Of a stretch of DNA of 64,000 bases, positions 26,220 through 53,746 are shown in pieces; position 1 is the first letter of the stretch; every line of letters starts with the position of its first letter. The notes under the pieces are model-generated. The model made no database searches. It was not told the DNA's origin and saw only the letters and a list, made by a program, of their open reading frames with translations. The translations under genes were made by a program, and so were the position numbers. Source of the DNA: Mytilus trossulus (lineage: Eukaryota); the NCBI RefSeq assembly GCF_036588685.1, contig NC_086375.1:58342001-58406000 (forward strand). The letters run 5' to 3'.

Positions 26220-27659
26220 TTTCTTTGGACTCCGAGTAAATTTTGAGGTGAAAACGCCATTTTAGGCAAGGGTACACATGAACCTTAAAAAAGCGTATAA
26301 AATGTTTTGTAAGAGGCAAGACAGCATCTAGCTATGACAACAACAGTTTACATTCTGTACAGCAATAATTATTTTTTCTTGACTCAGTCCAAAACATTTT
26401 TTCCCAGAAAATGTGCAAAAAAAAAGAGGAGAAATGAGTTAAGTGAAAGGTTACTTCGCATCCTTTTTATACTGCGGTCAAAATTTGAGGAGGTTGAAAG
26501 TTATCTAGGCTGTTCTCAATTTCTGGAGATACTTTGAGAGGAAGTTTTAATTTCAGTTATCGTTATTTCAGATATTTTACAAAATATGAATGATTAATTT
26601 ACTATTTAATTAAAAACTGCCTAATATTTATATATGCTATTATACACTACAATGCATCACAGCGGTTGTAAATTCAACCACTATCAAATTTTTTTTGCAA
26701 GAATGGATGGAAGACTTTTTGGTTATATTGTTTTTATATTGAGCGCATTTCTGTATCTATATATAATTATCTATTATCTGATCTTCAACATTTGCCCCCT
26801 CTGTTCACATATCAATCTGTTATTCAAATTAATATCGGATTTTAAGAGATGATTTTTTTTTCTTCATCAGTTTTCATAGATATTATATGTTCATTGACAT
26901 TTTTTATACAGTGGGAATGACCTGCATATATATTATATGGATGAACGAATTTTGTGTATCAGGGTTATTTTTCTGGCTAGCGATTTTTTTCGGTTCTTTT
27001 GATCTCATTATGATCGCACACAGCGAACATCATTTCTAACTCTAGTACTTTTTACATTGTTTTGAAATCGTTTGACATATTAGTGTTTTCGTTTTCAGGT
27101 CTTCTTGAAACTGTATTGACATTTGTTGATATAGATGCTAGTTATTATTTCTGTTTAGAGAGTAATCAATCGAATTTGTGTTTTTTTCGGCGTTCACAAG
27201 TGCTTTGTAGCGGAAACCGGTGAATAAATGTGATGGGTTTTGAGCAAATTTTATATGAAGGTCTCTTCTTGGATTGTGCTCCATGTTTGTGTGCATTAAG
27301 CCATAGTCGTGACTTTTCCTGACCATGATAGTTATTGAAAAGGAAAACAAATCATTTTCAGGTGAAAACAAAAATACTAATTTTCATTCTTTTCTAAAAT
27401 TTAAAGCACATAACCTATGAGACCTAAAATGAACAAAATGAAATACCCTAAGTTTGTAATTTGTCATCAAAACAAAGAATGTGTGCTTGAATTACAAAGT
27501 ATCAGATAAAGGCCGAGTTATATGCAAATTTATTCTTTTTTTAATAAATGAGATACAAAATCTGACATCACGAGCGACACATTATAATTTGTTGAGGAAA
27601 ACCCCTTTTTTAAACCAAACAGCGGCATACTACTGTTGCCTTTATATATTCATCTTTTC

Positions 27660-28370
27660 TACTAATCCATCAGATTCAGGTCTATAGGGACAAGTACGGC
27701 AATTGTCATCAAGGAAAGCTTTAAGTTTGCTGTTGTTTTTTTCCCTATGTCACCATATTGTCCAAGCATTTCTACAAAGTCTTCATTTTCTTCTATCTTA
27801 TCTTTTAGTTCTTTCTTTCCAAGACTCATGGTATACTTAACCAATTTCTTCGGCAGATGGAATTTCTGTCACCCTCCTCTATCTATATACGTAATCAGTC
27901 TCTGTGGATTTTCTCTTCCTCTTAACAACATGTCCAGTTTCTTCGGATGGTAATTGTACGGCCCTCTTACTGTCATAGGAGTTCGAGCGTTGACGCCATA
28001 TGATGGTGGCAACATCTTTTGCATTTTTTGTACTTGTTATTGTACCAGATGATACATCTGTTACAAACTGTGTAGCCCATGGTTCTGGATCATGTGCCTC
28101 CCCCTTTGCCATCCAGAATGCCAATTTCTTGTTCCTTGTAATTTCATTTTTTTTGATATTTTCTTTGTAAGAAGAGTCTGTAAGCTGCTTAAGAGGTCTT
28201 GTTATGGCACATATGTTTGCCTGCTCTAGATTATCTTTTGATCAGTTCATGAAGTAATTTTTGTTGTGTCTAGTTACAATTATGTGTACTCTGTCTAAAA
28301 CAGGCATTTGCTTAGGAAAGTCTGAAATAGCTGTGTAATACCAGCCATATCAAAATTTGTTTAATGATGA
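27660..28370 (-). pseudogene. Decayed coding sequence of unknown family (mirror copy at ~58225-60370, +)
   Basis: About 200 codons readable across one stop and one frameshift: ISDFPKQMPVLDRVHIIVTRH...KKLAFWMAKGEAHDPEPWATQFVTDV / LPPSYGVN...PYNYHPKKLDMLLRGR...QKFHLPKKLVKYTMSLGKKELKDKIEENEDFVEMLGQYGDIGK. Confidence 0.5.
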
Positions 28371-28724
28371 CCTAAGAAAGAATAATGGATATTCGGTCTA
28401 GCCGACACATCATTCAAACCCGCCATCACTTACATGGAATTAGTAGAGATGAGAGATGCTGCTACGCTATTACCAATAATTGAAAAGGCAGTAAAACCTG
28501 ATACCATCATATATTCTGACCAGCGGAAAGCATACTGTAATATACAAACAGAACTTAAACTACAACATGCAACAATCAACCACTCAGTGAATTTTGTTGA
28601 CCATGAAACATGGGTACACACACAAACCATTGAATCCTACTGGGCCAAGGCTAAATACAAGTTCAAAGTAATGAAAGGTGTATCATCAGACCTTCTTCCA
28701 AACTATCTAGATGAAAGAATGTGA
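28370..28724 (+). mobile_element. Merlin / ISXO2 (IS1595-family) DDE transposase remnant
   Basis: RDAATLLPII...PDTIIYSDQRKAY...HATINHSVNFVD..T.VHTQTIESYWAKAK...YLDE are IS1595/Merlin motifs. Confidence 0.88.
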
Positions 28725-29199
28725 AGAGTTCCACATATACATATATATATAAACAGAGTTTATTTTTGAACAAACAAACGATTCCAAAGATTCCACAATA
28801 CCCTGACGGGATGCAAACTACATTGAAAACAGCTTTTCGGGGGTTAAACCAAGAATTAAGACTTCAGATAAAAAAAAAATCTTAATGTCAAGGTCATTAT
28901 TATGCCAAACTCAAACCATCAACTAATTTGGTATAAAACTATTATAAGGTCACCGTTTGAAACCTGAGGTGTAAGGTTATCCTGTACCATACATGTTTTC
29001 CATGTCATTTGCTGATCGGATTTTATAACCTGTATAGGCGCTACAAATAGTGAATCTGTTTCTAACTGACAATTGTCACTGTTTTTAGCCGACACAAGAT
29101 CTTTGTTCGTACAATCAGGACAAGCTTCTCTCTTTCATTTTTCAAAGGGGCGCCTGATAAACCATAAGCATTTGTGTGCAAACTACCACATCGATGTTC

Positions 29200-30460
29200 C
29201 AAAACCATTTTATAAGTATCCAATGAACGTATCCAACGGGCTTTTATACCTTCAGGAATTTTGATTTTTTTTCAGCCAAATCAATGAGGCGTGATCGGTC
29301 CTGACCTTAAAATGTTGACCTAACAAATAATGTCTAAACTGCTTACCAATTGTGACTTCCTGTTAGTAGTACAAAATTTTCTTTGTAAATCACTAAAAGT
29401 TTTACTGATATATGCAATAATTTGTCCTCACCATCTTTGATTTGTGACAAAACGGCATCTATACCATTGGCACTTGCATCAGTATCTTATACATAATCAC
29501 CGTCCTCCCTAGGACAAATCAAAATAGGGACCGACATCAATATCTCCTTCAATTTATCAAAACCTTTTTGAAAATCGTCAGACCTCTTAAAATTTCTAGC
29601 TTTCTTAGTTAACTCCGTGAGAGGGGACTCAATCTCTGAAAAGTTTGGAATATATTTCTGGTAATACCAAGCAAGTCCCAGACAACTTCTGATCTCGGTT
29701 AAAAAGGTTGGAACTGACCAATTTGTTTACAGTCGTCTCAACTTTACTTGGATCACAACTGACATATGTATTAGATACTACATGACCAAAGAACACACCT
29801 TGAGTTTGAAACATTGTACATTTACTTGGTTTCAGTTTCAAATTAGTAGACTTAAATCTTTGAAAAAGCAGTCTCACATTTTCGAAAGTCTTTTCAAATG
29901 TTTCTCCAAAAATAATGCCGTCATCTAAATAGCATAGACAGCGTTCCCATTGATAGCCTTTTAAAACTTTCAATTAGACATTTGAAAGTTTGGGGTGCTC
30001 CACTGAGACCGAAAGGAAGTACTTTAATCTAAAAAAAGACCCTTATATGACGTAAAAGCAGTCTTTTCTTTCATGTCAGGTGACATTTCACATTGCTAAT
30101 ATTCAGACGTTAATTCAATTGTACAAAAGACTATTTCCCCGGAAAGTATCTATAGACTCATCTAGTCTGGGCAAAGGATATGCATCTTTTTTTGTTATTG
30201 CATTTAATGGAAGAAAATCAACACAGAACCTAAATGAGTATTCTTTCTAGTGACTAGGAATATAGGACTGGACCATGCACTTGAACTTGGATCTTTTGCA
30301 TCATTTTCCAACATTTTGTCTATTTGTGTTTCTATAGTTTTTCTTTGAGTCAAAGGAACAACAAGTATAGGTTAAGCATCTCTCTCGTGTCAATGGAATG
30401 TTTTACAATGCAAGTACTACCAGTTTTCCATCAGGACTTGTAAAACTATCCTGGAATTCA
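29200..30460 (-). mobile_element. Decayed Gypsy/Ty3 LTR retrotransposon pol (RT-RNase H)
   Basis: CLCYLDDGIIFG...NLKLKPSKC, DTDAS-like and VRTDHASL-like motifs, with several stops and frameshifts. Confidence 0.9.
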
Positions 30461-31262
30461 ACTTTTATTATTTTTTGTCGAGCCTTCGACTTTTGTCGAA
30501 AAAGCGAGACATAGCGATCCTACATATCAAGCTTTACAGGTTTAAATTTAGACTGAAAACCAAACGGAATCGCATGATCAACTCCTTAAGTAACGAGACG
30601 ATCAAGGGATACCACCTAGGGTAACAGCATCTGTTGCTAAGCATGCATTATATATTCTTTCACGAATATAAAGTTATAAACAGCAAGAATGAAACCTCGA
30701 TCGAAGAAATGCGAAAAACGGTACTAATTTCAGATTAAAAGAATGGACATGTGGGATGAGTGGCCAAATATACGTTTTTTTATTGTTTAAGTATAAAAGA
30801 AAAGTGATACAATGTTTTCAATTTTTTCAGCAGAGAGCATTTTATCTGAAATGAAGGCAATTATTTACCATAAAAAAATGGTCCTTGAAAACCACCATGA
30901 TTGAAAACGTTTTTGACTTTGTTATTGGTATGGAAAAAGATATACTAATGTAAAAGTCAAGATTGCATACTATATCTACCGTTTTATTGACAAAAAAGTA
31001 TGTTTTTGTCATGTTAAGGTGAATAACACAAAGGTAAGGTACCGATTACAGGTGTGTGTACATGATGTTTATTAATGTCTCTCTGTAATGGTAATTTCCC
31101 TATGACCATTTCCCAACTTAAAAATAAACTCGTTTATCATTTTGACAAGACAGGAAAAATATATCAAACTGTCCATTATAACACGGAAACATATTTTTTC
31201 CCGTTTAATTGCGTCGTTGAAATATTTCAAAATTTCATAAAAGGATGATATTGTTTCTTTTT

Positions 31263-31360
31263 TATATAAATAACTTTTTTGTTTTTTGGAAGTGCAGACC
31301 TACTTGGCCCTTTTGATAGAAAAAACCATTATATAGAATAAAGAAGAGAAACATGTGAGT
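31263..31360 (+). promoter_or_regulatory. TATA box and non-coding exon 1 of peptide gene A
   Basis: TATATAAATA at 31263-31272 and donor acat|GTGAGT at 31355. The mirror copy keeps TATAAATA (55396-55403) and acat|GTAAGT (55317). Confidence 0.65.
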
Positions 31361-31634
31361 TCATTTTTAAATATAAAGTTAATGCCATCAATGAAGTTTA
31401 CAATCTCGATTGTCTTTTACCTAAGGGAACAAAGGGGTGGAGTTGGGTGAACATACTTAACATTATTTTAATTGGCTTTCACACATTTCTGTAAAAATTC
31501 GGTACTTTTTTTTGGGGGGGGGGGGGTCTCACAAAATTTGTTATAAAAAATCTTTTCATGTGAAAACATCTATTTACTCTTCCGGATTCAATCGTGAAGG
31601 TCATTTTGATTTAAAAAAAAATATTTTTCAGAAA

Positions 31635-31859
31635 ATGAAGAGTGTACTTTTTATTACTGTTATTGCTGTGACATTATTGTGTGTTGTAAATGGACGGGGT
31701 GGTTCTCCTGGTGCACCAGGAAGACCAGGAGAACCAGGACGACCTGGAGGAACTGATTGGGGGTTTGAAACTACTACTACTTGGCCTATTGATGGAGGCT
31801 GTGGAGGAGAACCTGGTTACCCCGGAGGCCAGGGAGGGAGAGGAGGAAGAGGCTGTTGA
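31635..31859 (+). CDS. Small secreted Gly/Pro-rich peptide precursor, copy A (74 aa)
   Basis: MKSVLFITVIAVTLLCVVNG|RGGSPGAPGRPGEPGRPGGTDWGFETTTTWPIDGGCGGEPGYPGGQGGRGGRGC*. Signal-peptide-like N-terminus; acceptor ttttcag (31631) 3 nt before the ATG; donor GTATGT (31868) 8 nt after the stop; acceptor at 32432; AATAAA at 32507. GC-rich island in AT-rich DNA with an intact paralogue. Confidence 0.9.
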   Translation: MKSVLFITVIAVTLLCVVNGRGGSPGAPGRPGEPGRPGGTDWGFETTTTWPIDGGCGGEPGYPGGQGGRGGRGC

Positions 31860-31892
31860 GGTTCAAGGTATGTGTTCGTTAGAATTAGAAAT

Positions 31893-32080
31893 TATTTACA
31901 ATATATGTTCTATATATTGTAAATAATTTCATGTTAAACTTTTAAACATGTTTAACTTTTTTTATTCGTAACATTTGTTCTATAAAACATTTTAAACTTT
32001 TTTATTCACAATACTTGTTCTAGAAAACATGTTAACCTTTTTTTTATTTACAATATTTGTTCAATAAAACATGTCAATCT
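31893..32080. repeat. AT-rich minisatellite in intron 2 of gene A (mirror at ~54629-54790)
   Basis: Repeated ttttttattcacaatatttgttctataaaacatgtt-like units of about 36-40 bp. Confidence 0.75.
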
Positions 32081-32699
32081 TTTTTAACCTCTGATAATGA
32101 AAGTCTTTTATAGCTGACTATGTGGTATAGGCTTTGCTAATTGTTGATGGCCGTGCGGTGACCTATATTTGTTAATTTCTGTGTCATTCTAGTCTCTTGT
32201 AGAGATTTGTCTCATTGGCAATCATACCACTACTTCTTTTTTTATTATGCGATATCAAAGATTTGAATAGCTTCTATTGATAAGTACAAAGTGGATTCAA
32301 AACAGAGAAAAAAAACACATTATAATGAAGTATTGAACAAAGGTACCATTTAGGTACTTGTATACATTGATTACTTTATAATTTTGCAAATAATATCAAA
32401 CCTGTTCCATTTATTAAGTTATTTCTTTTCAGAATTATTGGTTTCCCCGTCAATAGGGCTATTAGGAGATAGAAAAAGAGTTACCAAAAAGAATTTTGTA
32501 GTTTTTAATAAAAATATTTCAAATACAGCAATCTTATCAATGCATGCATTTTCACTATATGTAAGCGTCAACGTCATTTATAGATTTAACTTTGAGCACT
32601 AATTATGATATTTCTTTAAGAGAATATCTATAATTTTGGAGAAGATGATGCTTCGTTGATTATTGACCTCCAGTGGGAAATTAAATGCATATTCAGGAC

Positions 32700-32975
32700 G
32701 AAAATGTGACACGAATACAATCCATGCTTGTATTGGTAATAGACTGACACACTACGCCTTCTTTTCATAGCTAGTTCACAATTTAACAGTTCTAAAAAGA
32801 CATGTCGACTAAACGGAATCATTATTGTGACTCCAAGACGAATAGTTTTTGTTTTTCCCTGTAATTGCAGCGTGCAAAGCGGGAGGTTCAATTTTTTTCT
32901 CTCAAGTATTTGGTTTTACCTGGCCAAGGAGGATTGAATCCACGACCTCCCACATATGAAGCGAGCATGCTACAT
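32700..32975 (-). mobile_element. tRNA-derived SINE-like remnant (mirror at ~53555-54020, interrupted by an insertion)
   Basis: Minus strand reads tagcatgctcgcttcatatgtgggaggtcgtggattcaatcc, resembling a tRNA anticodon/T-arm with a B-box-like motif, followed by a non-tRNA body. Confidence 0.5.
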
Positions 32976-34394
32976 TGATAGACTGGAATATTAAAATTAT
33001 CAAACAAATCAATACTTTCATATCGTTTTTGTGATATGTTTTTTCCGAAGCTAACTGAAGTCTTAAAATACTTGATATAATATTTAAGGGATGAAGTGGC
33101 TTTTTTTTGGTGATGTGGAGGGAGGAGGGCGTGGTGCTTTAACGTACTTGCACAAAATGTATGACACTTTTATAAGAGTTTTTTACAAGGATATATGATG
33201 TAATCTGTTTTAAGGCGCTCTGTTGTTCTAATTTTATAAGTGAAAAACACAACAGCGACACCATCACAAAAATAGTCCTTAAAAAATACCAAAAAGACAA
33301 ATATCAGTGCTCGAAAATCTTCATAATAAAAATGTACTACGGGAATCGAATATCTAACAAAAACTGGTGATACCAGGTGTTCTTGAAGGGATTAAATGCA
33401 CCGTCCTTTTGCCCATCAGCCTCATCATTACTCATTATATCTGATATGGAACTTTGCAAAAAGTGTTTTATTTTTTATTTGCCCATAGGAAAACATTTCA
33501 ATTGTATGAATTCCATATAACTACAAATACTAAACAGTTTGTAAGTGTGCACTGTTAGTATCCACTATAATACCGACGTTTTGTTGAATTGTCAATCCGT
33601 CAAATTCAGTAAATATATACATGTCGATCAAATAGTCTAGCATTTCTAGGAGGATGGTTGAACGATAACAAACATAAATCGAACAACAAATGTTAAAAAG
33701 GCCAAAATAAGTACAATTTTGAAGAGCAATGAGAGCCAAATATGCAAGAGGTCTTTGTTTTCAAGCTTTTTCAGCTATATTAATTCCAATTATATAACCA
33801 GTCTTGTTGATCTTTTGTCTTGTAAAAGATGTTTCTTGTTTAAATTTTCACATTCGGTGGAGCAGAATCAGCTAACCATACCCCAGCTCTCGAGATAACT
33901 TCCGGTAATAAGTGCGGTTTGTGTTGCTAAGTCCATAGCTTTCCATGCTGTGTTTTTTATACTGTTGTTTCATTTGTCTTTTGGTCCTTATTTGTCATAG
34001 CGTTGTTATTCGAATTATGAAACTTGTACTCTCAAGCTTGACAGTGCACGTGGTTACAAAGCAAACGGTCGAAATCAACAATGACTTTTTATATCCAGTA
34101 AAAATTCTTAATATATTAGTTAAATAACTGCGACTAATTTCAAATTGGTACTGTCTAACTTTAGTGTTTTGTAAGTAATTGTTTTGCTTTGTATCGATCT
34201 GATGAGTCAAACCCTCTTTGAATTATTTTAATCGCCTTTTTGTCTTATCCTGTTACATCACTAACACATGTTTTGGGAGGATGGTCACCTGCAACCACTC
34301 ACAATCCAGGAAAGTAAGGAGCCAGTTATCCAGTGGGTGTCGTTATTTGCACCAACATGGGACGATTGGTTTTCTTGTTTGATACATTTTGTCA

Positions 34395-34617
34395 AGAGAA
34401 GACAAGACAAGACAATCTCTAAATACAATTTATTACAACTTAGGCACACGTATGGTGCTACAAGAGGATAACAATTATACATTAACAATTACATATATAC
34501 GTATACAATTACAAGCAAGACACACAATAAATTAATAATTGATATCATACAATAAAACTGAAATATATTTAGTTGATTTGTTTGCAAAATTCTTAATTGC
34601 AACGTAATTAGAAATTC
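34395..34617 (-). mobile_element. Left-arm-specific 5'-truncated LINE 3' end
   Basis: Absent from the right arm (empty site near 50335-50345). Flanked by tttgtca at 34388-34394 and 34618-34624; the minus strand ends AATAAA...(tgtct)n. Confidence 0.7.
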
Positions 34618-35289
34618 TTTGTCATGTTTGGTCCTTACATATTAATATTTTGTATGGTTTTGCTCATTGTTGAATGTCTTATGGTGACCTATATATCTAC
34701 AAATTTGGTCTCTGGTAAATAGTTACCTCACTGACTATCATGTTACATTTAGTACTTAATGCCTGTTGATTATTGATAGAAGGAGAACAATGATCACTCG
34801 GTCGCGTTCATTTTTTACTTTACAACAGAGGACATGTCGATTTAGAACAGTTAAGTCAATGTCAACAAAATCATTCTTATCTACTTTTCCTTTTCTATAA
34901 GATTAAAAACAAAATGATGAAAACGTCCAATAATATCACTGCAAGTCTTCCAGACTTTGAATGATAACTTTTATTTTTAATTTTTTTGTAATTGTATTTA
35001 AAATGTGACCTTTTAATAATGGGCTTTGAAGAGGAATGTGGTAAGATCGTAACTTCGTAGGATGAACCGAAAACTAAAAAAAGAAAAAAAGAAACTGCTT
35101 TTATCATTATTGAAGTTTGCACGGTGACATTAAGCTATTACCCTCATGTTCATTGATCTAAAAATTAAATCTTTCCATATTTTTTTTTCGCCCATTGCAC
35201 GGACTGTCAAGATTTCGAATCATGACATATATGTTGCATCCAAATCAATCATGAATGAAAAAACATCGGTATCACATTTCGTCAATACG

Positions 35290-36330
35290 AAAATTTGAGA
35301 CACCGATGACGTTTTACAAGGTCTGAGTAGCAGCTGCAATCTTTAGAATATCGTATGAATTGAAAATTGTATACGTCATACGCCAGTGAAGTAAGCACAT
35401 TGATGCTAAGATGAGCAAACTAAAACTTGCAAAATTGACATCGTCTCGTTTGTCATAGATAATAGTACCGAGATGACCGTTGTTTTCAAATTCGAGGTTA
35501 ATGTTTAGAAATGAAGCTGTGAATGTCGTTTCGTAAATCTCGAGTTCAGTAAGATATACTAGTATTAATGGCTAAGGGAAAGAACATCATCAATATACCT
35601 GAATGAGAATTTAAATAATCTAGCTTTTTTATCTTCTTTTTTTACAAGTGTCTGATGGAACTCCGAATCATGAAATTTAACAAAAGGAAATTGGTTTCTG
35701 ATTTCAAGGATGTGTGTTTTGTCGATAAAAAGAGTGAAACGGTTCGTGAAAAAATATCATAGTGTAATAACATATCTCCTTATCTTGCATGGCTCATGTA
35801 CTTGAAATATCATTAAAAACATCTTATTTAGTTGTCTTCCATTATTTAATTTTTGTTATAGAGGATATGTAGTAAATTATGTGTATAATCGTTTTTAGTG
35901 TAACGTTGACAGGCGTTGATAGGACGATACTTGATGAAGGCGTGACAAACTATAACTTTCCTCCAATCAACTACTAGTATCCCATTGAACACAGTGAATT
36001 AAGCGTTGGGGGTGACACGTGATGTTTCATCTCACAGGCATGGTCATTCATATCATTTTCAAAGTAAGGTTGACATTGACAAGTTGCTTTCAGACGCTGA
36101 CACGAGGTTATGTGTAATTCATTCCAAACCTAATTTGTTGCACTTCATAGGTGTAAGGTATTTTTTTTCTTCTTTCATATATACAACTTCCATTTTCTTG
36201 TGTATAATTAAGATAATAAGAATAAAATCAGTTCGCGAGATCTTTTTTAGAGCTGCGGTCCTATGGAAATTGTCTGTTTGATGCATTTACAAAAGAGTTT
36301 TCAACTGGTGAAACTATTATAAAGAATATC
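35290..36330 (-). mobile_element. Decayed Penelope-like RT
   Basis: FRYIDDVLSL and GHLGTIIYDKRDD motifs on the minus strand, heavily frameshifted. Confidence 0.75.
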
Positions 36331-38659
36331 ATTTATCATATATCATCCATTTATTATAAACATTTGTATTGAGTACTATGATTGTGTTTATACATCTAGT
36401 ACAAGATATTCTGATATATTTGATGAGTTGTTATCACCAGTATGAAGCGTCCTCGTGTTTACTATGTATGCTACCTTTTGAATTGGGTAAACAAACTCGT
36501 CGTTCCCGTAATCTCTAGCTGTATATTTAAGCGTTTTTTTTTAAGCGTTCCCATGTTTACAATTGTACTACCAGTTACGTTTAGTAAATCCTCATCTTTT
36601 AATTGCTAGCTTTTTATCTACGCGTCCACATGTTTACAATATATGCTGCCATTTACATTAAAGGAAACAGTACCATGAATCCTTAAGTCTGTAGATGTTC
36701 ATTTATAAACAATATAAAACGTCTTCCTATGTTAACCATAAAGCTACCTTTTGCATTAAGTATACAGTTTCATCGCGCTTTTCATCTATAGCTGGGTTTT
36801 TTTTACATTATGAAATATCCCCATGTTTACATTAAAGCTACTCGATTAAGTAACTTGTAATAATTCATCTTGTGACTATACACTTCCATAAAATATATTT
36901 ATGTAGATAGATAGTAAATGTAGGCAGCAGTTGTTTACCGATGTTTAAATCTCAATCGATTAAGAAGACAAATCTAGTAGCAAACATTAAATGAGGAAAT
37001 CACGTTTACTTCATCAGGGACAAGACCACTGTGTCTTAACCACACCGGCAAAATTTGATCGAACTCGATGGTATCTAACATCCGGCACAATGACGGAACA
37101 TTTAAAATAGACAGAAGAAAGATAGGTTTCTCTTTATTTTCTTATTTTTTTTTTATGATATCGAAGAATATATATAGATATACAACTATTTTCTATTGTG
37201 ATATGCAATATTTTCTACAACCGTTCTATATTAACGGAGAAATAAGTAAAAATGAACGTCAAAATGACGAGTGCAGTGAACCTTGCCTCGAAATTGTTTA
37301 ATTTCTCGTTAAATTGTTCACATTGTACGAAAAGAAAGGTTCTCTTTCTCCTCATCTCGAGACAGTTAAATTTTAGTATTTGGATTGCCAAGCTTTTTAA
37401 ATTAATGAAATTTAACTGTTTAGAGTGGAGAAATATCGTAATACACGAGTTACAGTGGAGGAATCTGTTTCTCTAATGATATTTGTCCTTTCTTTTCAAA
37501 GATTTGAAGAAAGTTGTATATTTTTATGTTACGTCATCAGACATTGTCGCCTTTTTTCATGATGCACAATAGGAAAATTCAAAAGAAACAAAGAACATTT
37601 AACGTCACATTCAAATTTCGACCAATCATTTGCCGCGAACAGATTTTCACTAGTGAGGAGAAATATTTTTCTCACACCGATCAAGAAATGTGAAAATAGC
37701 ACAAGAATTACAGATTTTGCATTCAGCATTTTTGTTATACATTCAGTATCTTTAATCCCAAGTTCACTGAGTAAAACGTTTTGGAATTTTGGGTCCTTTA
37801 TGCTCCTGAGCTTTGTACTTGTTTGGCTTTATAATTTTTTTGATCGGAACGTCAGTGTTAAATTTTATGAAGACGAAACACGCGTCTGGAGTTTTAAATT
37901 ATAAGCCTGACACCTTTAATAACTATAAGATGCAAGCACTCACTGCAATATTGGTTGTTACACCCAATACAACACAGTTGCATTGCGTATAACGTTTTTG
38001 ATATGTCCGTCAGTCTGTCAGACATGATCTTGCCTTCAAAACTCAATTGAAACAACACAATAACATTTCATGAATATTTGTACATGCAGATGATAGGGAT
38101 ATATGTGCATATCGACAAAAATAATGATTAAATATTTAATCAAAAAGAATTTTGGCCTAAATACCACCGCAACAGTTTGTCACTGCCACCCCACAAAACA
38201 GAATTTTACAGCACTTTGTAGTTAGTGAGGACACTATATGTAGATGTGCATATCCAAAGGAAAATTTTATAATATTTTAATGAGTTATAAGTCTTTGAAT
38301 TCCAGTGATAACGGGGGGGGGGGGGGCATGTGGTATGTTAGTGTGCTTACACACAGGTTTTGTTTTCTTATTTTAGTAAGAGGACAACCTCAAAGCAATT
38401 GATATTGAAATTCAAAAACAAAAAGTACAAGTCAAGTTGCTTTTTTTGTATGCAATCCGGTAAAGGACATCCATCCTTGTTGGCGTAGAGAGCGGCTTAC
38501 TCTATATCAGAAGGTTATAGACTATGATCGTGTTTACTAGTAGAATAAAACATACTATACTGGATGACACGTCGCCAAGGATAAAAAGGTGCCAATCGGG
38601 TGTTGTCACCGATTTTATCAGGTGTCAGCAGGATCACCTTACTGTTGCATTTATTTATA

Positions 38660-39580
38660 CTTGCTGCGAGCTTGAGTCTAGAGCGGCATAACTTCATATC
38701 AGTAGGTAAGGTACTATGAGTATGTTAACAATGCTTGCGAGATGGTATCTAGTGTAAAAAGACTTCATATCAGTAGGTCAGGTACTAGGGACATGTTAAC
38801 GGTTTTAGTTGGTTACCCCGATTTTGTTAATTGTCTATGGATTTATGAGCGGTATACTACTGTTGCCTTTATTAAACAATGACTGCAAGATGGAATCTAG
38901 AGCAGCATGATTTCATATCAGTTAGTCAGGTACTAGAAGCATGTTAACGATGACTGCAACATGGAGTCTACAGCGGCATGACTTCAAAGCAGTAGGTCAG
39001 GTACTTTTTGCATGTTTACAATGACTTCCAGCTGGAATCTAGAGTGATATAATTTCATATCAGTAATAGTTAGCAAAAGTACCAGGATTATAATTAAGTA
39101 CGCCAGGCGCGCGTTTCGTCTACATAAGACTCATCAGTGACGCTCAAATCGATTATTTATAAAGTAAGTCAGGTACTAGGAGCATGTTAACAATCACTGC
39201 AAGATGGAGTCTAGAGAGAAATTACTTCATATCAGTACGTAAGGTACTATGTACATGTTAACAATGACTTCGAGCTGGAGTCTAGAGCGGCCTGACTTCA
39301 TATCAGTATGTTATGTATTAGGGGCATGTTAACAATGACTGCAAGATAGAGTCAAAAAAAAGAAATGACTTTATATCAGTAGGTCATGTATTAGGGGCAT
39401 ATTAACATTGACTGCGCGATTGAGTCTAGAGCTGAATAACTTCATATCAGTAGGTCAGGTACTAGGAACATATTTGCAATGACTGCGAGCTGGATTCTAG
39501 AGTGAAAAGACTTCATATCAGTAGGTCAGGTACAATGTGCATGTTTACAATGACTGCGATCTGGAGTCTAAAGCGGCTAG
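38660..39580 (+). repeat. ~71-bp tandem repeat array (~11 diverged units) interrupted by two short insertions
   Basis: Unit gacttcatatcagtaggtcaggtactaggagcatgttaacaatgactgcgagctggagtctagagcggcat; period 71 (e.g. 39368, 39439, 39510). Confidence 0.9.
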
Positions 39581-40299
39581 AACTTTGCTCAGTGCTTGAA
39601 GCACTAAACGCATGCTCGAAATATGAAATCCAGCATTTTGATTGGTTGATTTTTAAAAATGAGTACAAAAACTGACTCGAAAGTTTTATGACCACAAGGC
39701 CTGAGCATAAGGTTAAGTACTATGAGCATATTATAATGGCTGTGAGCTGGAGTCAAAAATCGGCACGACATCTTATCATAAAGTTAAGTACTACAAATAT
39801 AAGCATGCTTACAATGGTTGCGACCCAATCACTCCCGTTAGTGGTTTAGTATCACACCATCATAACATATATGAGAAGAACATGACCTGTATTACACCAA
39901 AAACTGGTTTTAGAATAATTGTGTTTATTTGCGATTCAAAGCTCTATGAGTGAATCAATATTGATATCTTTCAATTGCTGTCTCATTGGCGTTATCCCAT
40001 TTCTAATTTCAAATACCTTTATGGTTACAATTTATTTTACAAATATAATACAATTAGTGATTGACAGTTAGTTAAGGATTTAATACTTCATAAACTCATC
40101 GAATTAAAACCATCCAAGCGCTAGAAAAAAAACCCAGTCATTATGTTCTCTTACGTCTGAAAAGAAAAGAAAAATGTGATATCTTTGGTTTTCGCCAGTT
40201 GATAAGTTCAACGAATATACATGTAAACTACAAACAAAAATCAAATATTCCAAAGCCAAAAATATTATGATTTAATATCTAATATATTCACACATTTCC

Positions 40300-41335
40300 T
40301 TTTTAGCTCACCTGGCCCGAAGAGCCAAGTGAGCTTTTCTCACCACTTGGCGTCTGTCGTCCGTCGTCCGTCGTCGTCGTCGTTATCTTTTTACATTTTG
40401 AACTTCTTCTAGAGAACCACTGAATGGAATGAACCCAAACATGGCATGCATGTTCCTTATGAGGTGCCGAACAAGTGTTTTTACTTTGTAGCTGATTCAT
40501 CATCCAAGATGACCGCCAGCTGGGGACTTAGTTTAACATAGGACCCTATGGGAAATGCATACACAAGACTTCTCTTAGAGAACCACTGAATGGAATGAAA
40601 CCAAACATGGCACGAATGTTCCTTATGAGGTGCTGACTAAGTGTTGTTACTTTGTATCCGATCCATCATCCAAGATGGCCACCTGCGGGGGACTTAGTTT
40701 TACATAGGACCCTATGGGAAATGCATACAAATGAATTCTTTTATAGAACCACTGAATTGAATGAAACCAAACATGGCATGAATGTTCCTCATGAGGTGCT
40801 GACCAAGTGTTGTTACTTTGTAGCCGATGCATCATCCATAATGGCCGCCTGCGTGGACTTAGTTTAACATATGACCCTATGGGAAATATATGCAAGTGTC
40901 TTCTTTATAGAACCACTGAATGGAATGAAACCAAACGTTGCATGAATGTTCCTTATGAGGTGCTGACCAAGTGTTGTTACTTTGTAGCCGATCCAATATC
41001 CAAGATGGCCGCCAGCAGGGGGACTTAGTTTAACATAGGACCCTATGGGAAATGCATTCAAATGCTTCTTTTAGAGAACCACATAATGAAATAAAACAAA
41101 ACATAGCATGAATGTTCCTTATAATATGAGTTGCTGACCAAGTGTTGTTACTTTGTAGCCGATCTATCATCCAAGATGGCCGCCAGTGGGGGAACTTTTG
41201 AATGAAATCGAACATAGCCTGAATGTTACTTTCCTTATGAGGTTGTGTTGTTACTTTTAGCCAAATTTTATATTTTTTTATATGATTTAAAAACCCAAGT
41301 AGAATCAGGTGAGCGATACAGGCTCTTGAGAGCAA
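40300..41335 (+). mobile_element. Helentron-associated non-autonomous element (HINE/DINE-1/pearl-like) with ~5 internal 166-bp tandem repeats
   Basis: Subterminal inverted repeats ttagctcacctg / caggtgagcga, a (cgtc/gtc)n microsatellite, 166-bp period (40411, 40577, 40743) and a 3' hairpin ggctcttgagagc. Confidence 0.85.
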
Positions 41336-41838
41336 AAAAGGACAAAGAAGAAAAACAACGTTGCATCGTGACACTATTTTTTCAACCTGTATTCTACCTA
41401 AGGTTGATATCATAAACTTGCATTAAGTTTTGGTGTTAACGGCAAACTTTTGGCCTGTTCCATTAACATCATATTTATTTGCCCTTATGAATAAACCCTT
41501 TGAATGCAATGCTCAAAAACGTTTTAAAGCATTTTACTTTTGAATTTTTTACTCGACAACTTACTTACAACAACAACAAAAAACATAAAAAAAACCACAG
41601 GTTCGATTGAAACTTAATTTTAGAAATTATTGGACGTTTAAAATCAACATGTAACGATTGCCTATGTTATCATAAAGATACTCGTTCTCCTTTTAAAAAG
41701 AAGGGAACGTTTGATTGCCTGGCAAAATATTTTCAGTATTTTGAGAAAAAGAATTTCGTTGTTTGTTATTTCATTGTAACAAGGAGTAGCATATGACACT
41801 TTGGAAAATCGTTTTTTAAATGAATATGTTAACCTCAT

Positions 41839-41997
41839 TCATTTTCTTCTGCCTCCTCCTCCGAAATCACCAACGGCTCCTCCTCTTTCTGCACCACGAC
41901 CTCCAGGGCTGAAACTTAAACCAGTACCACGACGACCAGGTGTTGCAGATGTTATTTGTAGTATGGCAGTCAATAGAAGAAATAGAAAGTACAACAT
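41839..41997 (-). CDS. Small secreted Gly/Arg-rich peptide precursor C (52 aa) in the palindrome spacer; not in the ORF track
   Basis: Manual translation MLYFLFLLLTAILQITSA|TPGRRGTGLSFSPGGRGAERGGAVGDFGGGGRRK*. Hydrophobic signal ending TSA; acceptor aaatcag|G directly before the ATG; candidate donor ATGAG|GTTAAC 5 nt after the stop; candidate acceptor ttttgccag at 41719-41720; TATA-like TTTAAATA at 42178-42185. Confidence 0.82.
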   Translation of the reverse strand: MLYFLFLLLTAILQITSATPGRRGTGLSFSPGGRGAERGGAVGDFGGGGRRK

Positions 41998-42934
41998 CCT
42001 GATTTTAAACCTTGAAAAAATAACTCAAAATGTAACACTTTGGATTGATATTACCTAAATGAGATAATACACTTACAAAAAAAAAAAAATTTAACTCCAG
42101 TTGTCAAAACAAAGGTTCATCTGTGAACTAACCGTCATCGGAACAGATTTGTTGTCTGTGATTTTGCTTTTTTCAACTATTTAAACACCTTACAAGTGTA
42201 CACTATATGAACATTTGATAAAAGAAGGAACAATTGGTAGAGTAGCTTTTCTGTACATTACATCAAAGTTATATGATTCAATTGATGTTATACAGCGTTG
42301 AAAACACACAATTCCTTTTCGGGGTTCGTGTTGTGTGCAATCTGTAGTTTTCTATGTTCTGTTTAGAACAAAGTTGTTTGTTGTTTTGTGTCATGGTTTT
42401 GTCAGTTTATCTTCATATTTTAATTCTGAATGTCACTTTTGACCTTTCGCCTTTCTGTTGTCCTAATCTGTAGTGTTCTAAAGATTGATAAATTTATTTG
42501 AATTTGATACTTCTATATTAGAATGTAGAAAAAGTTTTTCCTTCTTGATGGTTTATGTAACAAGCAATATTTGATGAATATAATTAATCTGTAGTTAAAA
42601 AAAAAGAAGATTTTCCTTCAACATGAAAGAAAGAATTTTGTTTTCTAACTAAGTTGGTTTCGAGTTGTGTACGATTTTGGCTTAAATATTTTTGTTCAAC
42701 TAGATGTGGATGATTGTCGAGTAAAAAATTCTAAAGTAAAATGCTTTAAAACGTTTTTGAGCATTGCATTCAAAGGGTTTATTCATGAGGGAAAATAAAT
42801 ATGATGTTTATGAAAAAGGCCAAAAGTTGGCCGTTAACACCAAAACTTAATGCAAATGTATGATATCAACCTTAGGTAGAATACAGGTTGAAAAATAGTG
42901 TCACGATGCAACGTTGTTTTTTTCCTTGTTTTTT

Positions 42935-43937
42935 TTTTTAAATCATATAAAAAATATAAAATTTGGCTAAAAGTAACAACACAACCTGATAAGGAAAGGA
43001 ACATTCAGGCTATGTTTGATTTCATTCAAAAGTTCCCCCACTGGCGGCCATCTTGGATGATAGATCGGCTACAAAGTAACAACACTTAATCAGCAACTCA
43101 TATTATAAGGAACATTCATGCTATATTTTGTTTTATTCCATTCTGTGGTTCTCTAAAAGAAGTCATTTGAAAGCATTTCCCATAGGGTCCTATGTTAAAC
43201 TAAGTCCCCCTGTTGGCGGCCATCTTGGATGTTGGATCGGCTACAAAGTAACAACACTTGGTCAGCACCTCATAAGGAACATTCATGCAACGTTTGGTTT
43301 CATTCCATTCAGTGGTTCTATAAAAAATATAAAGAAGACACTTGCATATATTTCCGATAGGGTCCTATGTTAAACTAAGTCCACGCAGGCGGCCATCATG
43401 GATGATGCATCGGCTACAAAGTAACAACACTTGGTCAGCACCTCATGAGGAACATTCATGCCATGTTTGTTTTCATTCCATTTAGTGGTTCTATAAAATA
43501 ATTCATTTGTATGCATTTCCCATAGGGTCCTATGTAAAACTAAGTCCCCCGCAGGTGGCCATCTTGGATGATGGATCGGCTAAAAAGTAACAACACTTGG
43601 TCAACACCTCATAAGGATCATTCGTGCCATGTTTGGTTTCATTCCATTCAGTGGTTCTCTAAGAGAATTCATTTGTATGCATTTCTCATAGGGTCATAGG
43701 GTCCTATGTTAAACTAAGTCCCAAGCTGGCGGTCATCTTGGATGATGGATCGGCTACAAAGAAACAACACTTGTTCAGCACCTCATAAGGAACATTCATG
43801 CCATGTTTGGTTTCATTCTATTCAGTGGTTCTCTAGAAGAGGTTCAAAATGTAAAAAGTTAACGACGACGACGACGGACGACAGACGCCAAGTGGTGAAA
43901 AAAGCTCACTTGGCTCTTCGGGCCAGGTGAGCTAAAA
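42935..43937 (-). mobile_element. Mirror copy of the HINE-like element, lacking the 3' hairpin end
   Basis: Reverse complement of 40300-41290; ends caggtgagctaaaa at ~43937. Confidence 0.85.
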
Positions 43938-44649
43938 AGGAAATGTGTGAATATATTAGATATTAAATCATAATATTTTTGGCTTTGGAATATTTGATTT
44001 ATGTTTGTAGTTTACATGTACATTCGTTAAACTTATCAACTGGCGAAAACCAAAGATATCACATTTTTCTTTTCTTTTCAGACGTAAGAAGAACCTAATG
44101 ACTGGGTTTTTTTCTTCTAGCGCTTTGATGGTTTTAATTCGATGAGTTTATGAAGTATTAAATCCTTAACTAACTGTCAATCACTAATTGTATTATATTT
44201 GTAAAAAAAAATTATAACCATAAAGGTATTTGAAATAAGAAATGGGATAATGCCAATCAGACAGCAATTGAAAGATATCAATATTGATTCACTCATAGAG
44301 CTTTGAATCGCAAATAAACACAATTATTCTAAAAACCAGTTTTTGGTGTAATACGGGCCATGTTCTTCTCATATATTTTAAGATGGTGTGATACTAAACC
44401 TCTAACGGGAGTGATTGGGTCGCAACCATTGTAAGCATGCTTATATTTGTAGTACTTAACTTTATGCCGATTTTTGACTCCAGCTCACAGCCATAATAAT
44501 ATGCTCATAGTACTTAACCTTATGCTCAGGCCTTGTGGTCATCAAACTTTTGAGTCAGTTTTTGTACTCATTTTTAAAAATCAACCAATCAAAATGCTGG
44601 ATTTCATGTTTCGAGCATGCGTTTAGTGCTTCAAGCACTGGGCAAAGTT

Positions 44650-45720
44650 CAGCCGCTTAAGACTCCAGATCGCAGTCATTGTAAACATGCACATAGTACC
44701 TGACCTACTGATATGAAGTCATGCCGCTCTAAAACTCCAGCTCGCAGTGATTATAAACAAGCTAATAGTACCTCACCTAACAATATGGTGTTATGGCGCT
44801 CTATACTCAACCTCGCAACCGCCATTGTAAACATGCACATAGTACCTGACCTACTGATATGAAGTCAGTTCACTCTAGAATCCAGCTCGCAGTCATTACA
44901 AATATGCTCCTAGTACCTGACCTACTGATATGAAATTATTCAGCTCTAGACTCAATCGCGCAGTCAATGTTAATATGCCCCTAATACATGACCTACTGGT
45001 ATAAAGTCATTTCTTTTTAGACTCTATCTTGCAGTCATTGTTAACATGCCCCTAATACATGACCTACTGATATGAAGTCATGCCGCTCTAGACTCCAGCT
45101 CGAAGTCATTGTAAACATGTACATAGTACCTTACGTACTGATATGAAGTCATTTCACTCTAGACTCCATCTTGCAGTGATTGTTAACATGCTCCTAGTAC
45201 CTGACTTACTTTATAAATAATCGATTTGAGCGTCACTAATAAGTCTTATGTAGACGAAACGCGCGCCTGGCGTTCTAAATTATAATCCTGGTAAGCTTGA
45301 TAACTATTACTGATATGAAATTATGCCACTCTAGATTCCAGCTGGAAGTCATTGTAAACATGCAAAAAGTACATGACCTACTGCTTTGAAGTCATGCCGC
45401 TGTAGACTCCATGTTGCAGTCATCGTTAACATGCTTCTAGTACCTGACTAACTGATACGAAATCATGCTGCTCTAAATTCAATCTTGCAGTCATTGTTTA
45501 ATAAAAGCAACAGTAGTATACCGCTGTTCAAAACTCATAAATCCATAGAGAATTAACAAAATCGGGGTAACCAATTAAAACCGTTAACATGTCCCTAGTA
45601 CCTGATCTACTGATATGAAGTCTTTTTACACTAGACACCATTTCGCAGGCATTGTTAACATACTCATAGTACCTAACCTACTGATATGAAGTCATGCCGC
45701 TCTAGACTTAAGCTCGCAGC
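44650..45720 (-). repeat. Mirror copy of the 71-bp array with two extra units
   Basis: Reverse-complement units with the same interrupting insertions; extra ~146 bp at ~44720-44865. Confidence 0.9.
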
Positions 45721-48659
45721 AAGTATAAATAAAGGCAACAGTAAGATGATTCTGCTGACACCTGATAAAATCGGTGACAACACCCGATTGGCACCTTTTT
45801 ATCCTTGGCGACGTGTCATCTAGTATAGTATGTTTTACTACAAATCACGATCATAGTCCATAACCTTCTGATATAGAGTAAGCCGCTCTCTACGCCAACA
45901 AGGATGGATGTCATTTATCGGATTGCATACAAAAAAAGCATAGAGGGAAATCTCTCAGTATATATTTTTTCATAGATACATTTGCATCAATCAATAAGGT
46001 CGAGAAATTGTCTTAATAATCAGAGCAAGTTCATCGAATAAACTCAATGACATCATAGATACCACAAATAAATGTGTCTACGCCAGACGCTAATGGAAGA
46101 ACCGCAATGATTAAAATAAAATACACCGAAAGTGGTTTCATCGAAACGCTGGACGTTTTGATCGACAACATATTCATTGAACTTGATGGATTTGGGCAAT
46201 CGGTATTCAAATTCATTACTTATTGTGCACTTTTTATGGCCGACTTGACTTGTACTTTTTTTTTTAATTTCAATATCAATTGCTTTGAGGTTGTCCTCTT
46301 ACTAAAATAAGAAAACAAAACCTTTGTGTAAGCACACTAACATACCACATCCCCCCGTTATCACTGGACAAACAAATAAACAGATTTCTAATTTCTAATT
46401 CAAAGACTTATAACTCATAAAAATATGATAGAATTTTCCTTTAGATATGCACATCTACATATAGTGTCCTCACTAACTACAAAGTGTTGTAAAATTCTGT
46501 TTTGTGGGGTGGCAGTGACAAACTGTTGCGGTGGTATTTAGGCCAAAATTCTAAGGGGGCGTATATTTTAGATTAAATATTTAATCATTATTTTTGTCGA
46601 TATGCACATCTACATATGTCCTTATCATCTGCATATACAAATATTCATGAAATGCTATTGTGTGGTTTCAATTGAGTTTTGAAGGCAAGATCATGTCTGA
46701 CAGACTGACGGACAGATCAAAAACGTTATAAAGAATGCAACTGTGTTGAATTGGGTGTAACAACCAATATTTCAGTGAGTGCTTGCATCTTATAGTTATC
46801 AAAGGTGTCAGGCTTATAATTTAAAACTCCAGACACGTGTTTCGTCTTCATAAAATTCAACAGTGATGTTCCGATCAAAAAAATTATAAAGCCAAACAAG
46901 TACAAAGCCCAGGAGCATTAAGGACCCAGAATTCCAAAACGTTTTACTCAGTGAACTTGGGATTAAAGATACTTAATGTATAACAAAAATGCTGAATGCA
47001 AAATCTGTAATTCTTGTGCTATTTTCACATTTCTTGATCGGTGTGAGAAAAATATTTCTCCTCACTAGTGAAAATCTGTTAGCGGCAAATGATTGGTCGA
47101 AATTTGATTGTGACGTTAAATGTTCTTTGTTTCTTTTGAATTTTCCTATTGTGCATCATGAAAAAAGGCGACAATGCCTGATGACGTAACATAAAAACAC
47201 ACAAATTTCTTCAAATCTTTGAAAAGAAACAGTTAAATTTAACTAATTTAAAAAGCTTGGCAATCCAAATACTAAAATTTAACTGTCTCGAGAGGAGAAA
47301 TATCGTTACACACTGGTTGCAGTTGTGAAATCTATATTTCCAATGGTTAATGTCATATTTCTGAGCTGTACCATACTAACTGCCCGTCGTACGGCGTTTA
47401 CATATATCAATTAAAACGTTATCAAAGTTCGTTTCTTAAATCACTGGCGTCACGCTATCGCACGGTTTTTCGTTCATTTTTTTGCACATAAATCAGGCTG
47501 TTAGATTTCTCATTTGAATTGGTTTTCCGTTGTCATTTCGGGGCCTTTTATAGCTGACAATGCGGTATGGCTTTGCTCATTGTTGAAAGCCGTACGGTGA
47601 ACTATAGTTGTTAATTTCTGTGTCATATGGTCTCTTGTGAAGAGTTGTCTCATTGAAAAATCATACCACATCTCCTTTTTTATATTTGATTTGTTAATTG
47701 GATACTAGAAAAATTGTCTAATCCGTATGAATTAACTGTTTACAAACCACGGATTAGATTACTAAAGATGTATTTAGCAAAACCTTTTTGGAATTTCGGG
47801 TCCTCAATGCTCTATATGTAAGTACTTTATTTAGTTTTTAATACTTTTTTATTCGAGAGTCAATCCAGATTTCCATTTATTTACTGGTTGTGACATTTTG
47901 ACATGATGCATCACGGAATGCATGAGACGCGTTTCCTGACAACACACCCGGTCTTGTCGCTGATGAAGTAAACGTAATTTCCTCATTTAATGTTTGCTAC
48001 TTGATTTGTCTTCTTAATCGATTGAGATTTAAACATCGGTAAACAACTGCTGCCTACATTTACTATCTATCTACATGAATATATATTATGGAAGTGTATA
48101 GTCACAAGAAGAATTATAACAAGTTTATACTTAATCGAGTAGCATTTATGGTAAACATGGGGATATTTCATACTGTTAAAAAACCCAGCTATAGATGAAA
48201 TGCGCGATGAAACTGTTCACTTAATGCAATAGGTAGCTTTATGGTAAACTTAGGAAGACGTATTATATTGTTTATAAATGAACATCTACAGACTTAAGGA
48301 TTAATGGTACTGTTTCCTTTAATGCAACTGGCAGCATATATTGTAAACCTGTGGACGCGTAGATAAATAGCTAGCAATTAAAAGATGAGGATTTACTAAA
48401 CGTAACTGGTATTACAATTGTAAACATGGGAACGCTTAAAAATTTAGATATATAGCTAGAGATTACGGGAACGACGAGTTTGTTTACCAAATTCAATAGG
48501 TAGCATACATAGTAAACACGAGGACGCTTCATACTGGTGATAACAACTCATCAAATATATCAGAATATCTTGTACTAGATGTATAAATACAATCATAGTA
48601 CTCAATACAAATGTTTATAATAAATGGATGATATATGATAAATGATATTCTTCATAATA

Positions 48660-53562: not shown

Positions 53563-53746
53563 TCCAGGCATATATTACCGTAGCCGTATTTGGCACAACC
53601 TTTTGGAATTTTGGATCCTTAATGCTCTTCAACTTTGTACTTGTTTGGCTTATAAACATTTTGATATGAGCGTCACTGATGAGTCTTATATAGACGAAAC
53701 GCGCGTCTGGCGTACTAAATTATAAACTTGGTACCTTTGATAACTA
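53563..53746. mobile_element. Right-arm-specific short interspersed repeat insertion
   Basis: Splits tagcatg|tcgcttcatatg, which is uninterrupted in the left arm (~32953-32972). Same family as copies at ~37780-37925 and ~39066-39165. Confidence 0.75.

What the first reader, a model, noticed from the sequence alone, without database searches (positions are those of the whole stretch)
31635..31859. Peptides A/B have an unusual design: two short Gly-X-Y blocks, a Trp/Thr linker and a terminal Cys
Seen: (GSP GAP GRP GEP GRP GGT)-DWGFETTTTWPID-GGCG-(GEP GYP GGQ GGR GGR)-GC-stop. There are two Cys in the mature region, one being the last residue, and net charge is about 0 (A) or -1 (B), so these are not classical cationic AMPs. 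Established: Gly-X-Pro triplets favour polyproline-II helices, and Pro in the Y position is a prolyl 4-hydroxylase substrate. Inference: 5-7 triplets are marginal for a free collagen triple helix, so the peptide could be a disulfide-stapled PPII hairpin/bundle or a disulfide-polymerising micro-collagen. The Thr run is a candidate O-glycosylation site.
Basis: partly seen in the sequence, partly recalled or inferred. Interest (0 to 1): 0.75.

Follow-up and report, generated by a model that had tools for sequence, protein, structure and literature searches.

The report
Mollusc collagen-like mini-peptide gene pair
A mollusc genome, probably a mussel's, carries two spliced, transcribed copies of a tiny glycine/proline-rich gene with no known relatives, whose product is predicted to be secreted and likely serves as a disulfide-linked building block of an extracellular material, although a defence role is almost as likely.

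Summary
A (31635-31859, +, 74 aa) and B (55049-54819, -, 76 aa) are paralogues in a ~35-kb inverted duplication. Public contigs show two GT..AG introns, both in the UTRs, with the stop kept, so this is no exon of a longer collagen. No relatives turned up in Pfam, PDB or two very large protein collections, and no paper holds WPIDGG. Block 2 starts at Gly55, so both cysteines lie inside it, six triplets apart. Alleles differ by whole triplets and never lose a register glycine. No triplet has Pro at X, so a free triple helix is unlikely: even (Gly-Pro-Hyp)6 melts at 10 C. Best reading (0.40): a flexible, PPII-prone secreted peptide cross-linked through its cysteines into an extracellular material. 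Rivals: non-lytic defence peptide (0.28), stapled micro-collagen (0.15), monomeric PPII bundle (0.12). New here: a third, unrelated, cationic Gly-rich peptide ORF with an amidation-like tail at the centre of the duplication. The scan did not record this sequence before, but unchecked notes describe a similar peptide cluster 335-370 kb away. Fold and function are untested.

The parts
31250..31354 (+). Gene A exon 1, 5'UTR only (5' end not mapped; 31250 is where the contig starts)
   Evidence: X1 contig 31250-31354 joined to 31632
31355..31631 (+). Gene A intron 1, 277 nt, GT..AG, ends 3 nt before the ATG
   Evidence: joint seen in X1 and X2, two studies; ends
31635..31694 (+). Predicted signal peptide, 20 aa
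   Evidence: hydropathy peak 2.95 over 11 residues; 58 of 60 nt identical to B; cleavage site inferred
31701..31754 (+). Block 1: six Gly-X-Y triplets (residues 23-40), five with Pro at Y; seven triplets in B and in the X2/X7 allele
31755..31796 (+). Acidic linker, residues 41-54, two Trp, Thr run on an (ACT)4 repeat, net -3
31797..31859 (+). Block 2: six triplets from Gly55 plus terminal Gly-Cys and stop; Cys56 and Cys74; first half Gly-X-Pro and acidic, second half Gly-Gly-X and basic
31868..32432 (+). Gene A intron 2, 565 nt, GT..AG, in the 3'UTR, 8 nt after the stop
   Evidence: one contig of run X2, 49 nt on the short side; splice ends conserved in B
32433..32512 (+). Gene A exon 3, 3'UTR, to a candidate AATAAA at 32507 (3' end not mapped)
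54819..55049 (-). Gene B coding sequence, 76 aa; introns predicted at 55317-55053 and 54810-54266 by homology to A
   Evidence: a 117-nt contig of run X5 matches B with no difference
41839..41997 (-). ORF C, 52 aa: hydrophobic leader, 34-aa tail with 38% Gly, net +5, ending Gly-Arg-Arg-Lys; candidate acceptor AG just upstream of the ATG; expression not tested
26829..61237 (.). Inverted duplication, arms about 26.8-41.6 kb and 42.7-61.2 kb, 83-95% identical in the long non-satellite blocks, carrying A and B; C lies in the spacer

Best explanation
A and B are real, spliced, duplicated mollusc genes for a ~5-kDa glycine/proline-rich peptide that is predicted to be secreted, likely stays flexible with polyproline-II segments instead of forming a free collagen triple helix, and likely acts as a disulfide-linked building block of an extracellular material (mucus, adhesive or matrix). 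Shown: gene structure, transcription, retained stop, duplication, triplet-wise variation. Inferred steps: (1) cleavage after Gly20 and export; (2) partial hydroxylation of X-Pro-Gly prolines; (3) block 1 as a PPII rod, block 2 as a PPII hairpin or rod bounded by Cys56 and Cys74; (4) the cysteines, one of them an unhindered terminal thiol, first close block 2 or link chains head to tail; (5) basic ends (+2, +2) and an acidic, aromatic middle (-4; Trp, Trp, Phe/Tyr, Tyr) add non-covalent cohesion.
For: Spliced contigs with the stop; B-exact contig. Signal-peptide-like leader plus 39-41% Gly meets the sensitive SilkSlider setting for structural proteins (28-residue window, 35% Gly; PMC4944945 passages). 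Both Cys, both Trp and all register Gly are unchanged between A and B and at the 6 of 6 single-base allelic differences listed. pN/pS A vs B is 0.44 (7 of 159 vs 6 of 60 sites), no sign of diversifying selection, though not significant (Fisher p 0.20). Net charge 0/-1. Pro at X in 0 of 12 (A) and 0 of 13 (B) triplets; (Gly-Pro-Hyp)6 melts at 10 C and each replacement of Pro at X costs 2-15 C, roughly additively (PMC7824840). X-Pro-Gly prolines are partly hydroxylated even in a non-collagen PPII protein (PMC10235112 passage).
Against: No tissue, stage or proteome evidence: the runs are coded and contigs cannot rank expression. The peptide is shorter than SilkSlider's standard 80-residue window, and that paper lists immune gene families as false positives. 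The conserved leader, triplet-number polymorphism, myticalin-like exon layout and the cationic neighbour C fit a defence locus as well. Two Cys can simply close a ring and leave nothing for polymerisation. Conservation is weak evidence: coding 14 of 222 vs non-coding 258 of 2,552 mismatches (p 0.077), and 9-nt indels are expected from slippage in a 9-nt repeat.
Confidence: 0.4

Rival explanations
1. A non-lytic defence peptide of a Gly-rich peptide locus: it binds or entangles microbes, or works with the cationic neighbour C, at a mucosal surface.
For: Same three-exon layout as myticalins, with a ~300-nt intron just before the ATG (277 nt here; PMC5577615 passage). Leader 58 of 60 nt identical while X/Y residues and triplet number vary. 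ORF C is Gly-rich, net +5, with an amidation-like tail; 0 of 30 composition-matched resampled windows gave such an ORF at >30% Gly. Unchecked scan notes describe a cluster of such peptides 335-370 kb away.
Against: Net charge 0/-1; no dibasic site or anionic extension; intron 2 outside the coding sequence; pN/pS below 1. C is not detectably related to A (E 5.1) and its expression is untested.
Confidence: 0.28
2. A micro-collagen: three chains form two short triple helices, stabilised by hydroxyproline and inter-chain disulfides; the spare thiol at each Cys ring links trimers into polymers.
For: Pro or Arg at Y in 9 of 12 triplets of A (10 with Pro40) and 11 of 13 in B; these are the two best Y residues if Pro is hydroxylated (PMC7824840). 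Register kept in all variants. A single Cys per level links only two of three chains and leaves a free thiol. Myxozoan Ncol-4 minicollagens have only 4-6 triplets (PMC7981951 passage).
Against: Blocks of 6-7 triplets with no Pro at X and Gly at X in 4 of 12 and 5 of 13; variants drift towards Gly-Gly-Pro (R30G in B, R36G in run X6). No trimerisation or six-Cys domain. The linker length differs by one residue between A and B.
Confidence: 0.15
3. A monomeric PPII mini-bundle: about four short antiparallel helices (two per block), Cys56-Cys74 closing a 19-residue hairpin, the Trp residues packing on the prolines.
For: Springtail antifreeze proteins use helices of 3-4 Gly-X-X or Gly-Gly-X repeats with disulfides; helices with more neighbours are richer in Gly, matching the Gly-Gly-X half of block 2 (64% Gly). 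The Cys pair cannot bond within an extended chain (18 residues, over 50 A at 3.1 A per residue), so an internal disulfide needs a hairpin.
Against: All bundles listed in the parts read of that survey have six or more helices. Block 1 has no loop between triplets and tolerates an extra triplet. AlphaFold2 gave mean pLDDT 56 and 53, pTM 0.14 and 0.13, on alignments of 1 and 2 sequences, which is weak evidence. No Ala/Thr-rich ice-binding face.
Confidence: 0.12
4. A degenerate myticalin or a frame-shifted gene whose real product is the acidic +1 reading frame.
For: The +1 frame is open through exon 2, acidic, and crosses intron 2 in phase 1 like the myticalin anionic extension.
Against: All 10,000 synonymous-codon shuffles keep that frame open with the same D/E count, so it is a by-product of Gly/Arg codon use. 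It ends at different places in A and B, has no leader, found no relative, and 6 of 6 allelic changes are non-synonymous in it.
Confidence: 0.03

Closest known systems
Myticalins (Mytilus linear cationic AMPs; PMC5577615, PMC12294457)
   Same: Three exons, UTR-only exon 1, short intron 1 just before the ATG, leader and mature peptide in exon 2, conserved leader with variable mature part, duplicated genes.
   Different: Myticalins have pI above 11, over 10% Arg, no Cys, a Lys-Arg site, an anionic extension and a phase-1 intron in the coding sequence; A/B are neutral, have two Cys and stop before intron 2.
Cnidarian minicollagens (PMC7981951)
   Same: Small secreted proteins with a short Gly-X-Y stretch and cysteines available for disulfide networks.
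   Different: Minicollagens have one block of typically 12-16 triplets, polyproline flanks, a propeptide and six-Cys domains at both ends; A/B have two blocks of 6-7, two Cys in all, and none of the other parts.
Springtail PPII-bundle antifreeze proteins (HhAFP 3BOG, GrAFP 7JJV; PMC10235112, bioRxiv 2023.11.25.568672)
   Same: Small, secreted, Gly-X-X and Gly-Gly-X repeats, disulfides, X-Pro-Gly sites.
   Different: Six or more helices of 3-4 repeats separated by loops, with an Ala-rich flat face; A/B have Pro at nearly every Y of block 1 and a 14-residue Trp/Thr linker. No sequence or fold match.
Silk-like structural proteins of animal materials (PMC4944945), including shematrins and KRMPs
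   Same: Leader plus a Gly-rich, low-complexity region, lineage-specific.
   Different: A compositional class, not a family; A/B are shorter than the standard 80-residue window and have strict triplet register.

Membership tests
Myticalins | Three exons, intron 1 in the 5'UTR just before the ATG | tested here: met
   vs PMC5577615 passage
Myticalins | Second intron in phase 1 inside the coding sequence | tested here: not met
   intron 2 lies 8 nt after the stop, 233 nt from the ATG (phase 2 in that frame)
Myticalins | Mature peptide with pI above 11, no Cys | tested here: not met
   pI 6.3 and 4.9, two Cys
Myticalins | Lys-Arg site and anionic C-terminal extension | tested here: not met
   none in A or B
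Myticalins | Conserved leader matching the family consensus | tested here: inconclusive
   compared by eye with the consensus in section 2.1: Met-Lys start and Leu15-Cys16 agree, length 20 vs 23; no alignment was run
Minicollagens | Central collagen block, typically 12-16 triplets | tested here: not met
   two blocks of 6-7; short exceptions of 4-6 exist
Minicollagens | N- and C-terminal six-Cys domains, polyproline flanks, propeptide | tested here: not met
   two Cys in the mature peptide, no polyproline
Collagens (Pfam PF01391) | Match to the collagen repeat profile | tested here: not met
   0 Pfam families for A and B at E up to 10
Collagens (Pfam PF01391) | Stable triple helix | not testable with these tools
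   needs CD and ultracentrifugation; length and sequence argue against it
PPII-bundle proteins | Gly-X-X / Gly-Gly-X repeats with disulfides | tested here: met
PPII-bundle proteins | Folded two-layer bundle of six or more short helices | tested here: inconclusive
   room for about four helices; low-confidence models, no fold match
Silk-like structural proteins (SilkSlider class) | Signal peptide and at least 35% Gly in 28 residues (sensitive setting) | tested here: met
   39-41% Gly over 54-56 residues; criterion; leader judged by hydropathy only
Silk-like structural proteins (SilkSlider class) | Presence in a biological material | not testable with these tools
   no proteome could be searched

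The most novel reading that the evidence does not exclude
A and B encode the smallest natural self-contained polyproline-II fold, a ~55-residue, disulfide-closed PPII mini-bundle halfway between collagen (Gly-X-Pro) and glycine-rich bundles (Gly-Gly-X), and with the cationic peptide C they form part of the first glycine-rich defence-peptide locus in a bivalve, a class that a 2025 paper says is unknown in bivalves.
Probability: 0.12. Interest if true: 0.8.

Novelty: new variant of a known kind. Interest (0 to 1): 0.45.

Why it matters
The peptide is short enough to synthesise whole, so the open question of how few triplets, and which staples, give an ordered PPII or collagen-like assembly in nature can be tested directly, with natural six- and seven-triplet variants as a built-in series. 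If structural, it is an unreported minimal disulfide-linked component of a mollusc material. If defensive, it bears on the statement in PMC12294457 (passage) that no glycine-rich antimicrobial peptides are known in bivalves; ORF C is the better candidate for that. Without tissue or activity data it remains one of many lineage-specific secreted low-complexity peptides.

Tried and rejected
No whole genome was held, so copy number and the distant cluster could not be checked. Word-indexed search of 5.8 billion proteins, 40-130 aa only: no candidate; longer and shorter lengths were not searched with that tool. phmmer over 1.84 billion representatives, no length limit: 8 hits, of which I read 4, all large unrelated proteins matched through short Gly-X-Pro stretches. 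AlphaFold2 monomers low-confidence; fold searches on the A model empty and not meaningful at that confidence. Three-copy complex prediction: no answer, score 0.02, neither for nor against. Run X4 showed no cover of the coding sequence on B, only part of intron 1; small-share runs say nothing about tissue or habitat. The bacterial promoter scan was irrelevant and at chance. The +1-frame and exon-of-a-long-collagen readings were tested and rejected. Paper searches found no description of this peptide; the library lacks most subscription journals, and supplementary proteome or transcript tables of mussel papers were not searched and may list it.

Full report
Observation. Both start with a 20-residue hydrophobic leader (hydropathy peak 2.95; cleavage after Gly20 is my inference). 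The mature peptides are 39% and 41% Gly with net charge 0 and -1. Five consecutive Gly-X-Pro triplets arose in 0 of 20,000 shuffles; six Gly-X-Y arose in 1,128 of 20,000. Block 2 starts at Gly55, so it has six triplets and both cysteines (56 and 74) sit at X positions inside it, exactly six triplets apart.

Organism. The neighbouring TMEM196 exon has molluscs as its best named relatives (Tegillarca 80%, Haliotis 77%). No call of mine names the genus; 'mussel' rests on unchecked scan notes for the same genome.

The gene is real. Seven public runs from four studies hold part of the stretch; six are only guessed to be RNA, but spliced contigs show RNA origin for X1 and X2. Laid on A (4 of the 7 runs): intron 31355-31631 (GT..AG) is skipped in X1 and X2; one X1 contig runs from exon 1 to 31861, past the stop, with two other letters; one X2 contig skips 31868-32432 (GT..AG), 8 nt after the stop. 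Intron 2 rests on that one contig and on conserved splice ends in B. A stop so close to the last junction should escape nonsense-mediated decay (50-55-nt rule, recalled). Laid on B (4 runs, one of them laid before): one 117-nt contig of X5 matches B exactly; X3, X5 and X6 also hold contigs whose differences from B look A-type (judged by eye); X4 shows no coding cover. The reading 'exon of a longer collagen' is refuted.

Variation. X2 and X7 carry one more triplet (9 nt); all four runs laid on A have Pro at 40; X6, another organism label, has E33R and R36G. A and B differ by a 9-nt and a 3-nt indel and at 13 codons including the stop (TGA vs TAA); no change touches a register Gly, Trp or Cys. 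pN/pS is 0.44, p 0.20; coding versus non-coding mismatch is 14 of 222 versus 258 of 2,552, p 0.077. So constraint is suggested, not proven, and in-frame indels are also what slippage in 9-nt and 3-nt repeats gives. The Thr run is (ACT)4 in A and (ACT)3 in B.

Surroundings. A and B lie in the arms of an inverted duplication of about 35 kb. A scan of both strands for short ORFs with a hydrophobic leader and a Gly-rich remainder returned three: A, B and a 52-residue ORF C at 41997-41839 (-) in the spacer between the arms. At more than 30% Gly, 0 of 30 locally resampled windows gave any such ORF; at more than 15%, 4 of 30 gave one. C has net +5 and ends in Gly-Arg-Arg-Lys, like an amidation signal (established processing rule; PMC12294457 passage). 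It is not detectably related to A, has no Pfam match, is not in the exact look-up, and its expression could not be tested. Unchecked scan notes describe about a dozen tiny Gly-rich secreted peptide genes 335-370 kb further on, one of them with an unbroken Gly-X-Y run; look-ups by sequence for A and C found nothing in other windows.

Relatives. None found. The 4 of 8 phmmer hits that I read are large unrelated proteins matched through Gly-X-Pro stretches. No paper in the library holds WPIDGG; searches showed no description (listings only).

Mechanism. A free triple helix is unlikely: (Gly-Pro-Hyp)6 melts at 10 C, each loss of Pro at X costs 2-15 C roughly additively (PMC7824840, passages and section 2.1.1), and no triplet here has Pro at X. 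Against this, Pro or Arg fill Y in 9 of 12 and 11 of 13 triplets, the best residues for a helix if Pro is hydroxylated, so a stapled micro-collagen is not excluded. Gly at X (4 of 12, 5 of 13) and drift to Gly-Gly-Pro resemble layered PPII assemblies (bioRxiv 2023.11.25.568672, parts 1-3 of 4), but the bundles described there have six or more helices and there is room for about four. The two cysteines cannot meet in an extended chain, so they either close block 2 into a hairpin or join chains. AlphaFold2 gave no confident fold (pLDDT 56 and 53). I therefore commit to a flexible, PPII-prone, disulfide-linked component of an extracellular material (0.40), in line with the Gly-content rule of PMC4944945 (passages), with non-lytic defence close behind (0.28) because of the myticalin-like layout, the conserved leader and ORF C. 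Everything after transcription is inferred.

Comparison. It shares the exon layout of myticalins but fails charge, Cys, dibasic site, extension and intron-2 position (PMC5577615 passages, section 2.1, supplement part 1 of 2; PMC12294457 abstract and passages). The acidic +1 frame, which crosses intron 2 in phase 1, looked like a myticalin extension but is reproduced by 10,000 of 10,000 synonymous shuffles. It fails the minicollagen definition (PMC7981951 passages) and matches springtail antifreeze proteins only in repeat type (PMC10235112 passages).

Verdict. A real, apparently undescribed small gene pair with an unusual, synthesisable design; new variant of the known kind 'secreted Gly/Pro-rich low-complexity peptide'. 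Fold and function are open. Interest 0.45.

Noticed in passing
window 41997-41839 (-): ORF C: 52-aa leader-bearing, Gly-rich (38%), cationic (+5) peptide ending Gly-Arg-Arg-Lys in the single-copy spacer of the inverted duplication; a better antimicrobial candidate than A or B. Expression untested.
   Followed up: partly
window 26829-61237: Inverted duplication of about 35 kb, arms 83-95% identical, spacer about 1.2 kb.
   Followed up: partly
window 18786-21339 (+): Two coding exons of a TMEM196 gene, well conserved in molluscs.
   Followed up: partly
window 28386-28724 (+): ISXO2-like (IS1595 family) transposase fragment, Pfam PF12762, E 8e-15, duplicated in the other arm.
   Followed up: no
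window 29300-30400 (-) and 56300-57300 (+): Degenerate reverse-transcriptase fragments just upstream of A and B (PF00078, E 5e-7 for one piece).
   Followed up: no
window 38600-45800, 58600-59900, 61460-62750: Tandem arrays with units of about 71, 166-173, 126 and 21 nt.
   Followed up: no
window 32105-32245 and 54510-54630: A high-copy short interspersed repeat sits in intron 2 of both A and B, apparently in opposite orientation relative to the gene.
   Followed up: no
window 54846-54860 and 54934-54935: In runs X5 and X6 short contigs of higher depth overlap parts of the B coding sequence; they may be further paralogues or unrelated collagen-like transcripts.
   Followed up: no
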